A stretch of 64,000 nt of DNA, taken from Thermoanaerobaculia bacterium. Lineage in GTDB: Bacteria; Acidobacteriota; Thermoanaerobaculia; UBA5066. This document shows positions 43,455 through 46,198 of this stretch, piece by piece. The DNA lies in contig JBBRRY010000005.1 of assembly GCA_038245905.1 (NCBI GenBank), positions 72,742 through 136,741 on the forward strand, given 5' to 3'. The translations under genes and the position numbers were made by a program. Numbering within the stretch: position 1 is the stretch's first letter; each line of letters begins with the position of its first letter. The notes under the pieces were generated by a model. It made no database searches. It was given only the letters and a program-made list of their open reading frames with translations, and was not told the DNA's origin.

Positions 43455-44381
43455 ATGCTCGCTCTTCTGACAATCCTGCCCCTTCTGGCCCAGGGACCAG
43501 CCTCTCCTCCTCCGAAACCCTCGCCCGCCGCGGATCAATCCGGGAAGGGCAGCGCCATGGCGGGAGCCGCCGGCCTCGAAGTGCTGTGGGCGAGCCGTCT
43601 CGCCGAAGCCGTCGAAGGGGCCAAACGCCTGCGCGACGGCCGCATCCTCATTTTCTTCGTGGAACCCGACTGCGGCCAGTGCAAGCGCATGGAGGCGCTC
43701 GTCGCCCCCTCCACGTCGTTCTTCGCCTACACGCGCGACAAGGTGCCGCTCCTCGAGGACGTGTCGACCGCGGAAGGCAAGGAGCTCGCGCGGCGTCTCC
43801 GGATACGCAGCGTGCCGACGTGGATCGTCGTCACACCGGAGCTCGTCGAAAGCGGCCGTCAGGAGGGTCCGACGAGCCAACAGGGCTGGGTCGACGCGTT
43901 CATTCAGGTCGAGCGCGGGTGGGCCGGCTACCGGAAGGTGCTCGCCGACGAGACCGCCGATCCTTCGAATCCGGGGCTCGTCTTCGAGGCGGCGCGTCAG
44001 ACGTATCAGCGCGGCGGTGGCGCACTGGCGGAGGCGCGGTTCCAGCGGCTCGCTCGCGATCCGAAGACCCAGGCCGCGATCAAGGAGCAGGCTCTCGGGT
44101 ACCTCACGTCCCTCGAAATGGAGTCCGGAAGGTTCGACGACGCGGTCGCCCACCTCGACACGCTCGTCGCGACGGCGCAGGACCCCGTACTCAAGATGCG
44201 GGCCGAACTTCGGCGGGCCGACGTGGAGATCGCGCGCGGCCGGAAGGACCTCGCGGCCTGGCGCCTGAAGGACTTCGTGAAGGCCCATCCGGATACTCCA
44301 CTCGCGGCCGAAGCACAGGCGCTCCTCGACGCGCTGCAGGGCAAGGCTCCTCCCGCGAATCCGGACGCCAAGGAGCACTAA
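43455..44381 (+). CDS. Secreted thioredoxin-fold + TPR protein
   Basis: Signal peptide, CGQC, SVPT cis-Pro loop, C-terminal helical repeats ending in HPDTPLAAEA. Confidence 0.82.
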   Translation: MLALLTILPLLAQGPASPPPKPSPAADQSGKGSAMAGAAGLEVLWASRLAEAVEGAKRLRDGRILIFFVEPDCGQCKRMEALVAPSTSFFAYTRDKVPLLEDVSTAEGKELARRLRIRSVPTWIVVTPELVESGRQEGPTSQQGWVDAFIQVERGWAGYRKVLADETADPSNPGLVFEAARQTYQRGGGALAEARFQRLARDPKTQAAIKEQALGYLTSLEMESGRFDDAVAHLDTLVATAQDPVLKMRAELRRADVEIARGRKDLAAWRLKDFVKAHPDTPLAAEAQALLDALQGKAPPANPDAKEH

Positions 44382-46198
44382 TGTCTCTCCTTCGAACTGC
44401 CTCGGCTCTCGCGCTCGTTCTAGCCGCTCTCCCAGCGCCTGCGGAGCCCATCCCGGCCTCGAACACGATCATCGCTCCGCGCCTTGCGGCCGATGCCGAC
44501 CGGCTCGTCGCGGGAGCGCCTTTCCGCCTCGCCGTAGTCGCCGACGTCAAGGCGGGCTGGCACGTGAACAGTCACACGCCGAAGGAAGATTTTCTCATCC
44601 CGACCGAGATCCGGATAAAGCCCGCGGCGGGTCTCGTGTTCTCGCCCGTGAAGTATCCGAAGCACAAGGAGACGAAATTTTCGTTCTCCGATCAGCCTCT
44701 CGCCGTCTACGAGGGCCGGACCGTTTTCCTCGTGCCCGGCACCGTGGACGCGAAGGCCGCGCCGGGACCCCGCACGCTGACGGCCGTGATTTCGTACCAG
44801 CCCTGCAACGACAACCAGTGCCTTCCGCCCGCCGAGCTCACGGCGACGCTCACCCTCGAAGTCGCGAAGGCGGGGTCGCCCGCTACGCCCGCCAACTCCG
44901 ACGTCTTCGCTCCCCCGGCGGCCGGTAGCGGAGCGGGAGCCGCGGGGAATATCGAGAATGCCATGTCTGCGGGCGCCACGCCGCTCGGAGCCGAGGCCGC
45001 GCCCCTCGGGGCCGCGGCGATGCGCGAGAAATGGAACGTCCAGGGAGTCCCGACTCTTCTCTTCATCGGCCCCGACGGCAAGGAGATCGGCACGCGCGTC
45101 GTCGGTTTCGAGCCGCCCGAGACGTTCGCTCCGCGCTTCAGCGGCGGCGGCCCCGCCGCCGCCGAGGGCGGCCTCGCGGGCAAGTCGCTGCCGCTCCTCA
45201 TCGGGCTCGTCTTCCTGTCGGGCCTCGCCCTCAACCTGACTCCCTGCGTCTACCCGCTCATTCCGATCACGCTCGGGTTCTTCAGCCGGCAGACCGGAGG
45301 AAAGAAGGGTGGAACGTTCGGCCTCGCGCTCCTCTACGTCCTCGGCATGAGCGTCACGTACTCGGCCCTCGGCGTCTTCGCCGCGCTCTCGGGCTCGCTC
45401 TTCGGCGCCTGGCTGCAGAAGCCGGTTGTTCTCCTCTCGATCGCGGCGATCGTCGTCGCGCTCGCGCTCTCGATGTTCGGGCTCTTCGAGATTCGCGTCC
45501 CGCACTTCATCACGGACCGCACCGGGTCGAAATCCGGCGCCGTCGGCGCCCTGACGATGGGACTCTTCGTGGGGTTCGTGGCCGCGCCCTGCATCGGCCC
45601 GTTCGTCCTCTCGCTCCTGACCTACGTCGCGGCGAAGGGCTCGGCGCCTCTCGGCTTCGGGCTCTTCTTCACGCTCGCGATGGGCCTCGGCCTTCCCTAT
45701 CTCGTCCTCGGGACGGTGTCGGGTAGCCTGAAGGCGCTCCCGCGCTCGGGCGAGTGGATGACGGCCGTGCGTCGCGTCTTTGGCTTCGCGCTCGTCGCGC
45801 TCGCGGTCTACTTCCTCCGCCCGCTCCTGCCGCCGCGCTTCTACGAAATTGGCATCGCGCTGCCGCTGCTCGCCGGGGGCGTGTGGTTCCTCTTCTTCGA
45901 GAAGAGCGGGGCCGGTGTGAGGGGATTCTACGCCGCGAAGGCCGCCGTCGCCGTGCTTCTCCTCGCCGCCGGCGGGCTCTTCGCGATGCCCGAGAAGGCC
46001 GGAGCGGCCCTCGCGTTCCAGCCCTATTCGGACGCGGCCGTGGCCGCGGCGCTGGCCGCCGGCAAGCCCGTGATGATCGACTTCTACGCGGACTGGTGCC
46101 TGCCCTGCAAGGAGCTCGACCACAAGACGTTCCGCGACGCGCGCGTGATCGCGGCGGCGAACGGCTGGGTGCTCCTGAAGGCTGACTTGACGAGATAG
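44381..46198 (+). CDS. dsbD: DsbD-like disulfide reductase with rearranged thioredoxin domain
   Basis: alpha domain ([15 protein letters not shown]), TM domain (LTPCVYP, APCIGP), terminal [10 protein letters not shown]; TAATG coupling. Confidence 0.88.
   Translation: [605 protein letters not shown]

What the first reader, a model, noticed from the sequence alone, without database searches (positions are those of the whole stretch)
44381..46198. DsbD with a split, permuted thioredoxin domain bracketing the membrane domain
Seen: the protein stops at ...[29 protein letters not shown]...VLLKADLTR* (46061-46198), only the first half of the gamma thioredoxin fold. The missing second half, [40 protein letters not shown] (45020-45139), with the cis-Pro loop, beta3-beta4 and last helix, sits in frame between the alpha domain and TM1, flanked by Gly/Ala linkers. 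Known: canonical DsbD-gamma continues ...NVLGLPTILFFDGQGQE...RVTGF..AETF, and both DsbD termini are periplasmic, so the halves could reassemble. All three Cys pairs are intact and nothing thioredoxin-like follows the stop. Inference: the transporter is effectively inserted into a circularly permuted thioredoxin, tethering gamma at both ends. I do not know a described example.
Basis: partly seen in the sequence, partly recalled or inferred. Interest (0 to 1): 0.86.

Follow-up and report, generated by a model that had tools for sequence, protein, structure and literature searches.

The report
DsbD with a split thioredoxin domain
This membrane electron-transfer protein (DsbD) carries the last third of its thioredoxin domain in front of its membrane domain and the rest behind it, and the same odd order is conserved in many related bacteria.

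Summary
The ORF 44381-46198 (605 aa) reads: signal peptide, DsbD alpha domain, about 45-aa Gly/Ala linker, the C-terminal part of the gamma thioredoxin fold (aa 209-254, with the cis-Pro loop), an 8-helix beta domain, then the N-terminal part of gamma (aa 545-605, with WCLPC) and a stop.

It is not a misassembly. 93 of the 120 best database clusters share the order, as do all 31 species genomes of three genera. Contigs from four sequencing runs bridge the junction.

Canonical sister genera hold the gene at the same locus. There the relocated piece follows ...ADLTR directly.

The two pieces map to residues 21-70 and 78-124 of solved E. coli DsbD-gamma. They are predicted to pair as one thioredoxin fold (ipSAE 0.73, best control 0.00). 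The core motifs of the moved piece are conserved.

More distant lineages show the same split. Others split one strand later, or carry the whole gamma ahead of beta.

Seven literature searches found no description. I read it as a functional DsbD whose gamma domain is tethered to the membrane domain at both ends: a new variant of a known kind. How it arose is unresolved.

The parts
44381..46198 (+). Whole permuted dsbD ORF (605 aa plus stop). Its ATG overlaps the upstream stop codon (TAATG).
44381..44443 (+). Predicted Sec signal peptide (aa 1-21).
   Evidence: Hydrophobic N-terminus read from the sequence and an AF2 helix at aa 3-15. The cleavage site is inferred, not computed.
44468..44866 (+). 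Alpha domain (aa 30-162), an Ig-like DsbD_N domain with Cys142 (44804-44806) and Cys147 (44819-44821).
   Evidence: Pfam PF11412 at aa 41-156. Foldseek top hits are DsbD-alpha structures 3pfu, 1vrs and 1z5y, TM-score on target 0.65-0.71. AF2 pLDDT about 88-96.
44867..45004 (+). Variable Gly/Ala/Pro linker (aa 163-208) joining alpha to the relocated gamma piece.
   Evidence: AF2 pLDDT below 50 at aa 179-208. No consensus in alignment A1. Length varies between samples. dN/dS 0.43.
45005..45142 (+). Gamma-C: the relocated C-terminal part of the thioredoxin fold (aa 209-254). It holds helix alpha2, the cis-Pro loop G222-V-P224-T225, strands beta3 and beta4, and the last helix.
   Evidence: Pfam Thioredoxin_2 profile 69-102/104. 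Aligns to E. coli DsbD-gamma residues 78-124. 56-74% identical to the C-terminal tails of canonical relatives. AF2 pLDDT 79-87 with helix 211-218, strand 225-229, helix 246-254. G222, P224, T225, G233 and G242 are invariant.
45143..45184 (+). Short linker (aa 255-268) from gamma-C to TM1.
45185..45988 (+). Beta domain (aa 269-536), eight predicted TM helices, with Cys289 (45245-45247) and Cys404 (45590-45592).
   Evidence: Pfam DsbD_TM at aa 273-482, profile 4-218/219. AF2 helices 270-304, 311-341, 348-365, 384-419, 422-449, 457-478, 485-505 and 516-535. CcdA structure 5vkv matches aa 274-477.
46013..46198 (+). Gamma-N: the N-terminal part of the thioredoxin fold (aa 545-605), beta1-alpha1-beta2 with W572-C573-L-P-C576. 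It ends ...LLKADLTR and is followed by the stop codon (46196-46198).
   Evidence: Pfam Thioredoxin_7 profile 4-61/83. Aligns to E. coli DsbD-gamma residues 21-70. AF2 strand 564-569, helix 574-583, strand 597-602.
43455..44381 (+). Context: a co-oriented upstream gene with a 1-nt overlap. It encodes a secreted thioredoxin-like (CGQC) plus TPR-like protein, a candidate redox partner.
   Evidence: Pfam Thioredoxin_2 at aa 63-138 and TPR families below their cut-offs. Conserved upstream of both permuted and canonical dsbD.
46225..46944 (-). Context: the convergent RNase III gene, which bounds the 3' end of the locus.
   Evidence: Pfam Ribonuclease_3 plus dsrm. The same neighbour is found in permuted and canonical relatives.

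Best explanation
This is a functional DsbD-type thiol:disulfide electron transporter. Its periplasmic thioredoxin (gamma) domain is built from two non-adjacent segments of one chain.

The segment beta1-alpha1(CxxC)-beta2 follows TM8, as in ordinary DsbD. The segment alpha2-cisPro-beta3-beta4-alpha3 has been moved to just before TM1.

The beta domain has an even number of TM helices, so both segments lie in the periplasm. There they assemble into one Trx fold that is tied to the membrane domain at both ends, by linkers of about 10-15 residues.

The alpha domain now hangs from gamma on a flexible linker of about 45 residues, instead of being joined to TM1.

The inferred electron path is unchanged: cytoplasmic thioredoxin -> Cys289/Cys404 (beta) -> Cys573/Cys576 (gamma) -> Cys142/Cys147 (alpha) -> periplasmic partners.

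Shown here: the order of the segments, its conservation, orthology with canonical dsbD at the same locus, and a predicted pairing of the halves. Inferred: assembly within one molecule, activity, and any advantage of the double tether.
For: Anatomy. The two pieces map to residues 21-70 and 78-124 of solved E. coli DsbD-gamma.

Exact breakpoint: canonical relative P0095 reads ...KADLTR followed by TGSPEVEALRERWKIQGVPT... P0001 stops after ...KADLTR and carries the homologous [14 protein letters not shown]... piece, 56% identical, between alpha and TM1.

Real and conserved: 93 of the 120 best clusters have alpha-gC-TM-gN, 25 are canonical and 2 have frameshifted tails. All 31 genomes of genera g1 (29), g2 (1) and g6 (1) have this form, and no second strong DsbD match.

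The neighbourhood up-dsbD-rnc is the same as in canonical sister genera.

Contigs bridge the junction in 4 of 4 runs laid, one of them with 0 differences over 44800-45640.

Constraint: the core of the moved piece is at least 90% conserved, ALRE.W..GVPT..F.G..G.E.G.RV.GFEPP..F. dN/dS is 0.34 against 0.43 for the linker.

Fold of the halves: predicted complex of aa 536-605 with aa 208-256 scores 0.73 (runs 0.73, 0.72, 0.76), best of 3 controls 0.00. That mark was reached by 58 of 80 solved complexes and 2 of 110 mismatched pairs. The runs agree in at least 97% of contacts and the partner's pLDDT is at least 82. The tightest contacts pair 563-568 with 225-230 antiparallel. From textbook knowledge of the Trx fold, that is the standard pairing of the strand before CxxC with the strand after the cis-Pro.

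AF2: in the full-length model aa 211-250 have pLDDT 79-87 and there are 8 TM helices. A natural alpha-less relative with the same order (P0155) gives mean pLDDT 82 and pTM 0.70, with both halves at pLDDT 84-96.
Against: There is no experimental or expression evidence.

The complex prediction may pass by likeness to the many solved Trx structures, as the tool itself warns. It treats the halves as separate chains, so it cannot tell assembly in one molecule from assembly between two.

The full-length AF2 model has pTM 0.48, and the tools return no coordinates. Contact between the halves in the whole chain was therefore not seen directly.

The moved piece is less conserved than the same piece in canonical relatives. 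At TM identity 0.8-0.9 its identity is 0.71 against 0.84. Its dN/dS of 0.34 is about twice that of gamma-N, 0.165.

The NCBIfam DsbD model scores 256 bits, below its cut-off of 330.
Confidence: 0.8

Rival explanations
1. Assembly between molecules (domain swap). Gamma-C of one protomer completes gamma-N of another, so the permuted DsbD works as an obligate dimer or oligomer.
For: The complex prediction used two separate chains, so it fits this reading equally well. Full-length AF2 has low pTM, 0.48.
Against: Both linkers to the membrane domain are short, about 14 aa before TM1 and about 10 aa after TM8. That favours closure within one chain. The monomer model of the alpha-less relative P0155 has pTM 0.70 with both halves at pLDDT 84-96.
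Confidence: 0.12
2. Decayed gamma domain. The truncated C-terminal piece and the relocated piece do not form a working Trx. Electrons would go from beta to another Trx-like protein, such as the co-transcribed CGQC-TPR protein.
For: The moved piece is under somewhat relaxed constraint. A Trx-like gene lies immediately upstream. CcdA-type transporters do use separate Trx-like partners (passages of PMC3322552).
Against: WCxPC and the cis-Pro loop are invariant across 91 clusters of 62-94% identity. The upstream gene is equally present next to canonical dsbD, so it does not replace gamma. No other DsbD was found in the genome.
Confidence: 0.06
3. Assembly or gene-calling artefact in this MAG.
For: The window comes from a 113-contig assembly of a genome.
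Against: The architecture is identical in 93 of the 120 best clusters from many sources, some on contigs of 3.9 Mb, 1.3 Mb and 0.64 Mb. It is also present in 31 species genomes and in contigs of four runs from four studies.
Confidence: 0.01

Closest known systems
Canonical DsbD (E. coli type: alpha, 8-TM beta, C-terminal gamma)
   Same: The same three modules and the same three Cys pairs. DsbD_N, DsbD_TM and Trx profiles all match. The gamma pieces align to solved DsbD-gamma and alpha matches solved DsbD-alpha by fold. Canonical orthologs sit at the same locus in sister genera.
   Different: Gamma is not contiguous: its last 45 or so residues precede TM1. Alpha is joined to gamma rather than to TM1. 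The NCBIfam DsbD model scores below its cut-off. The published DsbD, CcdA and ScsB classes are described with an N-terminal alpha and a C-terminal gamma (passages of PMC3322552).
CcdA plus a separate periplasmic thioredoxin-like protein
   Same: The same membrane core. CcdA structure 5vkv matches by sequence, and it matches the P0155 model by fold.
   Different: In that system the Trx partner is a separate, whole protein. Here it is covalently attached at both ends and split.
Self-assembly of E. coli thioredoxin from fragments (in vitro)
   Same: Two Trx pieces that are incomplete alone reconstitute the fold. This is cited in PMC6995567 (passage and its reference 253 seen).
   Different: Those fragments are made in the laboratory and are not tethered. 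Here the split is natural, encoded in one gene, and the pieces are held together by a membrane domain. The exact laboratory cut sites are recalled, not checked.
Engineered 'termini restraining' of membrane proteins with split GFP
   Same: Two halves of a soluble fold are fused to the N- and C-termini of an even-TM membrane protein and reassemble on one side of the membrane. The authors report stabilisation (PMC11205269, passages seen).
   Different: That system is man-made and the coupler is inert. Here the coupler is the catalytic domain itself.
Other non-canonical DsbD orders found here
   Same: The same logic of gamma elements placed ahead of beta.

Type A, as here: P0122, P0195, P0222, the alpha-less P0155, and genome loci L049 and L050.

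Type B, split one strand later: P0273, P0276, P0279, P0283, P0287, P0292, P0168 and P0142.

Type C, whole gamma ahead of beta: P0124, P0246 and P0248.
   Different: The breakpoints differ (types B and C). The beta domain is 6-TM-like in the P0195 clade, which covers only HMM positions 5-212 of 269. Type B proteins carry two alpha domains. I found no description of any of these in print in the searches made.

Membership tests
DsbD family (thiol:disulfide electron transporter) | Membrane beta domain of the DsbD_TM type with two conserved Cys in Pro-Cys motifs | tested here: met
   PF02683 E 2.6e-49, profile 4-218/219. C289 is at least 90% conserved and C404 invariant in 91 homologs.
DsbD family (thiol:disulfide electron transporter) | N-terminal periplasmic alpha domain (DsbD_N fold) with a Cys pair | tested here: met
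   PF11412 scores 32.8 bits against a cut-off of 25. Foldseek hits to DsbD-alpha structures with TM-score on target 0.65-0.71. C142 and C147 are at least 90% conserved.
DsbD family (thiol:disulfide electron transporter) | A contiguous C-terminal thioredoxin-like gamma domain after the last TM helix | tested here: not met
   Only profile positions 4-61 of 83 of Thioredoxin_7 lie after TM8. The remainder lies before TM1.
DsbD family (thiol:disulfide electron transporter) | Score above the curated NCBIfam DsbD threshold (NF001419) | tested here: not met
   256.2 bits against a cut-off of 330, in two stretches.
DsbD family (thiol:disulfide electron transporter) | Eight TM helices with both ends of beta in the periplasm | tested here: inconclusive
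   AF2 secondary structure gives eight TM helices. Sidedness is inferred from the signal peptide and from published E. coli topology (passages of PMC3322552). It was not computed.
DsbD family (thiol:disulfide electron transporter) | Transfers electrons from cytoplasmic thioredoxin to periplasmic oxidoreductases | not testable with these tools
   Needs genetics or biochemistry.
Thioredoxin fold | All core elements present: beta-alpha(CxxC)-beta, a connecting helix, a cis-Pro loop, and beta-beta-alpha | tested here: met
   Present in two pieces that together cover residues 21-124 of solved DsbD-gamma, apart from about 7 residues. AF2 secondary structure agrees.
Thioredoxin fold | The elements pack into one sheet, with the cis-Pro strand antiparallel to the strand before CxxC | tested here: inconclusive
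   This is predicted only. ipSAE 0.73 against a best control of 0.00, with 563-568 pairing with 225-230. The pass may reflect likeness to solved Trx folds.
Circular permutation | The same elements as the parent domain, with the C-terminal part encoded ahead of the N-terminal part | tested here: met
   Two BLASTP HSPs against canonical P0095. P0001 4-605 aligns with 5-536, with a 72-aa gap. P0001 194-254 aligns with 522-585.

The most novel reading that the evidence does not exclude
Splitting the gamma thioredoxin domain around the membrane domain is a recurrent solution that selection favours, not a one-off.

It arose several times: at least three separated type-A lineages, at least two type-B lineages, and type C. 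The likely starting point was a tandem beta-gamma duplication that was then trimmed at both ends.

On this reading it persists because tying gamma to both TM1 and TM8 acts as a natural 'termini restraint'. That would stabilise beta and keep the gamma Cys pair over the beta Cys pair. It would also make gamma fold only once the whole transporter has been inserted.
Probability: 0.3. Interest if true: 0.78.

Novelty: new variant of a known kind. Interest (0 to 1): 0.64.

Why it matters
DsbD is the textbook example of moving reducing power across a membrane by a relay of three domains, and models of the relay assume a freely tethered C-terminal gamma domain.

This is a natural, conserved form in which gamma is discontinuous and clamped to both ends of the membrane domain. 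It gives a ready-made test of how much gamma mobility the relay needs.

It is also a natural counterpart of engineered split-protein 'termini restraining', and may be a better-behaved target for a full-length DsbD structure.

For protein evolution it is a clean case. The canonical ortholog sits at the same locus in sister genera, the breakpoint is exact, and other lineages have other breakpoints. It shows a small soluble fold permuted around a polytopic membrane domain.

For annotation, these proteins are currently named 'CcdA' or 'DsbD' with no flag. A half-Trx hit at the C-terminus could be misread as a truncation.

Tried and rejected
Misassembly was rejected.

A remnant of the old gamma-C downstream of the stop: none. 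Only 26 nt separate the stop from rnc.

A second DsbD in the genome: not found with this query. There is only a weak Trx match on contig C29.

Direct repeats at the junctions that could explain the rearrangement: only short GC-rich matches of 16-32 nt at 73-94% identity, none at the breakpoints.

An intermediate carrying both a pre-TM1 gamma-C and a complete C-terminal gamma: none with a significant pre-TM1 hit among the 363 proteins classed or the 74 genome loci classed. The apparent 'both' cases L064, L068, L070 and L099 have pre-TM1 hits at E 0.5-0.7, which are chance. P0142 looked like 'both' but is type B.

Tandem beta-gamma-beta-gamma fusions among longer proteins: 0 of 37 long hits have two TM domains. 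30 of the 37 are fusions with an N-terminal Trx/YyaL-like region. The tool says this is weak evidence.

Single origin of the permuted form within the family: not settled.
- The dsbD tree, built without the trait's columns, has an unresolved backbone and needs 5 changes, of which starred branches force at least 2.
- The AU test does not reject permuted monophyly, p = 0.08.
- A tree of the two flanking genes places the permuted genera g1, g2 and g6 apart among canonical genera. It needs at least 2 changes, and 0 of 200 bootstrap trees need only 1. However, the g2 and g6 rows are long branches.

Foldseek on both models finds only one half of gamma, or alpha, or CcdA. That is expected of an aligner that follows chain order, so it says nothing on whether the halves touch.

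Nothing can be said about expression.

Rows dropped:
- P0028, P0048, P0073 and P0080 from alignment A1 (frameshifted or deleted).
- Two thirds of the first-set canonical rows from the 215-row tree.
- 6 of 80 loci in which my script found no ORF.
- L011, L014, L019, L036, L038, L041, L048, L131, L132 and L137 from the flank tree, for lack of one flanking gene.

Supplements of PMC3322552 (its Table S1 and Fig. S1 list DsbD-family members) could not be seen. They might include such proteins.

Unpublished genomes G135, G179, G175, G004 and G104 are counted in the class tally. L025 and L028 served as outgroup rows. No other claim rests on them, and no sequence of theirs is given here.
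Full report
**What is there.**
Window 44381-46198 (+) is one open frame of 605 codons. Its ATG overlaps the stop of an upstream gene (TAATG).

Pfam finds four matches:
- DsbD_N at aa 41-156.
- DsbD_TM at aa 273-482, covering profile positions 4-218 of 219.
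- The first part of a thioredoxin profile at the very C-terminus: Thioredoxin_7 positions 4-61 of 83 at aa 548-604.
- The last part of a thioredoxin profile between alpha and TM1: Thioredoxin_2 positions 69-102 of 104 at aa 216-251.

Against PDB sequences, aa 555-604 align to residues 21-70 of E. coli DsbD-gamma (4ip1_A). Aa 213-258 align to residues 78-124 of the same chain. Together the two pieces account for the whole gamma domain except about seven residues.

The stop is followed after 26 nt by the end of the convergent RNase III gene.

**It is real.**
The 120 best clusters from the protein database were classed with profiles built from this family:
- 93 have the order alpha, gamma-C, TM, gamma-N.
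- 25 have the canonical order alpha, TM, gamma-N, gamma-C.
- 2 have the new order with frameshifted tails.

A pattern-based count gave 92, 25 and 3. The permuted clusters are 58-93% identical to the query by BLASTP. They come from NCBI, JGI, ENA and Logan assemblies, including contigs of 3.9, 1.3 and 0.64 Mb. The sources that name them say Thermoanaerobaculia or Acidobacteriota, 'CcdA' or 'DsbD'.

Among species-representative genomes, 153 of 201 sampled from the class have a DsbD match, and 62 of 63 from the family do. Matches colinear over the whole permuted query are confined to genus g1 (29 of 29, counting the window's genome), g2 (1 of 1) and g6 (1 of 1). Four of the g1 genomes show it only in part:
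- G088 and G225 are frameshifted near the 3' end.
- G116 and G210 are cut by contig ends.

The other genera of the same family (g3, g4, g5, g81-g84) and all other families give the canonical two-piece pattern. I confirmed that at sequence level for 17 canonical family loci.

No genome with the permuted gene shows a second strong DsbD match.

Logan contigs were laid for four runs from four studies. One 844-nt contig matches 44800-45640 without a difference. That run may be the window's source sample. Relatives in the other three runs also run from alpha through a length-variable linker into gamma-C and TM1. In two of those runs similarity ends exactly at 46198.

**The breakpoint.**
Canonical relatives are colinear with P0001 except for a gap of about 72 aa where the linker and gamma-C sit. 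Their C-terminal tails match P0001 aa 194/212-254 at 56-74% identity. In P0095 the sequence ...KADLTR runs straight on into the homolog of the moved piece. P0001 stops after ...KADLTR.

By AF2 secondary structure and the alignment to DsbD-gamma, the cut falls after strand beta2 and before helix alpha2. From general knowledge of the fold, that is the seam between the beta-alpha-beta unit and the beta-beta-alpha unit.

The neighbourhood is the same in permuted and canonical family members: a Trx-TPR gene upstream, dsbD, and convergent rnc. The permuted gene is therefore the ortholog, rearranged in place.

**Do the halves make one domain?**
The predicted complex of aa 536-605 with aa 208-256, each given with the family alignment, scores 0.73.
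- The three runs gave 0.73, 0.72 and 0.76. The best of three controls was 0.00.
- That mark was reached by 58 of 80 solved complexes and by 2 of 110 mismatched pairs.
- The runs agree in at least 97% of contacts, and the partner's pLDDT is at least 82.
- The closest pairs are 565-228, 564-229, 566-227 and 568-225. They describe an antiparallel pairing of the strand before CxxC with the strand after the cis-Pro. The last helix lies against 583-592.

This is the standard Trx arrangement, and that is also the caveat. The model may be recalling solved Trx folds, and it cannot tell assembly within one chain from assembly between two.

The full-length AF2 model has mean pLDDT 75 and pTM 0.48.
- The moved piece is ordered: pLDDT 79-87, with helix 211-218, strand 225-229 and helix 246-254.
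- The linker aa 179-208 is disordered, below pLDDT 50.

A natural alpha-less relative with the same order (P0155, 408 aa) models at mean pLDDT 82 and pTM 0.70, with both halves at pLDDT 84-96. For the second it finds CcdA and half-length matches to DsbD-gamma: 59-66 aligned columns, rmsd 2.6-3.0.

**Constraint.**
In 91 permuted homologs:
- G222, P224, T225, G233 and G242 are invariant.
- A213-W218, R239, V240, F243-P246 and F249 are at least 90% conserved.
- All six Cys are invariant or at least 90% conserved.
- The linker has no consensus.

Median pairwise dN/dS over 25 genomes:

| Region | dN/dS |
|---|---|
| beta (TM) | 0.13 |
| gamma-N | 0.165 |
| alpha | 0.23 |
| gamma-C | 0.34 |
| short linker | 0.37 |
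| long linker | 0.43 |

At equal TM-domain divergence, gamma-C is less conserved in permuted proteins than in canonical ones:

| TM identity band | gamma-C identity, permuted | gamma-C identity, canonical |
|---|---|---|
| 0.7-0.8 | 0.60 | 0.67 |
| 0.8-0.9 | 0.71 | 0.84 |
| 0.9-1.0 | 0.85 | 0.93 |

So the piece is under purifying selection, but somewhat relaxed.

**Wider distribution.**
An exhaustive HMMER search was run with gamma-C plus TM1-2 (aa 205-345). It found 4198 proteins at E <= 0.001, and the best 150 representatives were listed. They include further proteins of the same order that are only 42-65% identical to each other: P0122, P0195, P0222, the alpha-less P0155, and fragments.

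Of 80 genome loci related to P0195, 74 could be classed. Two have this order: L049, an uncultured bacterium, and L050, an Abditibacteriaceae MAG. The rest are canonical. In this clade the beta domain covers only profile positions 5-212 of 269 and models with six TM helices.

Two other orders turned up.
- Type B. Eight proteins end just after the cis-Pro strand. They carry a piece resembling strand beta4 plus the last helix (..F.PP.QF..) before TM1. They are P0273, P0276, P0279, P0283, P0287 and P0292, all with two alpha domains, plus P0168 and the isolated P0142. Pfam's Thioredoxin profile is matched only to positions 76-84 of 103-104 at the C-termini of the two scanned, P0273 and P0142.
- Type C. 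Three proteins (P0124, P0246, P0248) have a complete gamma ahead of beta. In the two that retain their N-terminus (P0124, P0246) it is preceded by two extra hydrophobic helices.

A tree was built from TM plus gamma-N for 215 proteins (quick method).
- The window's group sits inside a clade mixed with canonical forms (99).
- The P0195 group is a separate clade (100), next to three canonical proteins.
- P0122 stands alone.
- Seven type-B proteins form one clade (97), and P0142 lies elsewhere.

**Origin.**
This is not resolved.
- Within the family, the dsbD tree built without the trait's columns has an unresolved backbone.
- The AU test does not reject a single permuted clade, p = 0.08.
- The flanking-gene tree puts g1 next to canonical g3 (99/95). 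It puts g6 with canonical g5 and g83 (99/94), and g2 outside. No bootstrap tree needs only one change (0 of 200). The g2 and g6 rows are long branches.

Three histories remain possible: one origin followed by allele exchange at this conserved locus, repeated origins, or differential loss from an ancestor that carried an extra gamma-C copy.

The set of orders seen (types A, B and C) is what trimming a tandem beta-gamma duplication at different points would give. But I found no duplicated intermediate: 0 among 363 proteins and 74 loci classed, and 0 of 37 long proteins with two TM domains.

**Comparison with what is known.**
Passages of Cho et al. [quoted passage not shown] DsbD and ScsB have eight TM segments, an N-terminal alpha domain and a C-terminal gamma domain.

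Seven full-text searches found no description of a split or permuted gamma domain. The terms combined DsbD or 'thioredoxin fold' with 'permutation', 'permuted', 'split', 'domain architecture', 'gamma domain' and 'Acidobacteria'. The library lacks most subscription journals, and supplements were closed.

Two related facts are known:
- E. coli thioredoxin reassembles from fragments in vitro (passage and reference in PMC6995567).
- Engineered split-GFP 'termini restraining' stabilises even-TM membrane proteins (PMC11205269, passages).

**Verdict.**
This is a DsbD in function and descent, but it fails the family's architectural definition on one point, the contiguous C-terminal gamma domain. I rate it a new variant of a known kind: conserved, widespread in one acidobacterial family, and echoed elsewhere.

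Noticed in passing
P0273, P0276, P0279, P0283, P0287, P0292, P0168, P0142 (database proteins): A second kind of split gamma ('type B'). The C-terminus ends right after the cis-Pro strand, and a piece resembling strand beta4 plus the last helix sits before TM1. Six of the eight carry two DsbD_N domains. P0142 has no relative above 41% identity.
   Followed up: partly
P0124, P0246, P0248 (database proteins): DsbD-like proteins with a complete thioredoxin domain ahead of the membrane domain and none behind it. In P0124 and P0246 the domain is preceded by two extra hydrophobic helices after alpha.
   Followed up: partly
P0195, P0222, P0155, P0211; L049 2501-4114; L050 2501-4105: A distant clade with the same split as the window, one member from an Abditibacteriaceae MAG. 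Its membrane domain covers only the first roughly 212 of 269 profile positions and models with six TM helices. P0155 has no alpha domain.
   Followed up: partly
window 43455-44381 (+): A secreted thioredoxin-like (CGQC) protein with a TPR-like C-terminal half. Its stop overlaps the dsbD start. It is conserved upstream of both permuted and canonical dsbD in the family, and at 23-27% identity in another family (f5). It is a candidate DsbD substrate or partner.
   Followed up: partly
P0364-P0399 (database proteins of 1071-1366 aa): 30 of 37 long relatives are fusions of an N-terminal Trx/YyaL (DUF255)-like region with a complete canonical DsbD.
   Followed up: no
P0270-P0272, P0140, P0200, P0234, P0345: Canonical DsbD proteins with two tandem alpha (DsbD_N) domains.
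   Followed up: no
window about 44950-45010 (linker); run X2 at 44983: The Gly/Ala linker is repeat-prone. A relative's contig carries a 21-nt insertion there, and other relatives have 94 or 128 letters in place of 79 or 122.
   Followed up: no
P0048; P0028, P0073, P0080; L011 (G088), L048 (G225): A few family members look damaged. P0048 lacks about 35 aa of the moved piece, including the cis-Pro loop. The others have frameshifted 3' ends. Whether these are sequencing errors or real decay was not examined.
   Followed up: no
window 43270-43345 (-): A tRNA-Phe (GAA) gene lies between a YegS/diacylglycerol-kinase-like gene (42099-43250, +) and the Trx-TPR gene.
   Followed up: no
window 46963-47546 (-): Two small overlapping ORFs. 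The upstream one (47211-47546) has a weak ribbon-helix-helix match, 19.6 bits, below the cut-off. The pair is laid out like a toxin-antitoxin pair, but the downstream ORF matches no Pfam family.
   Followed up: partly
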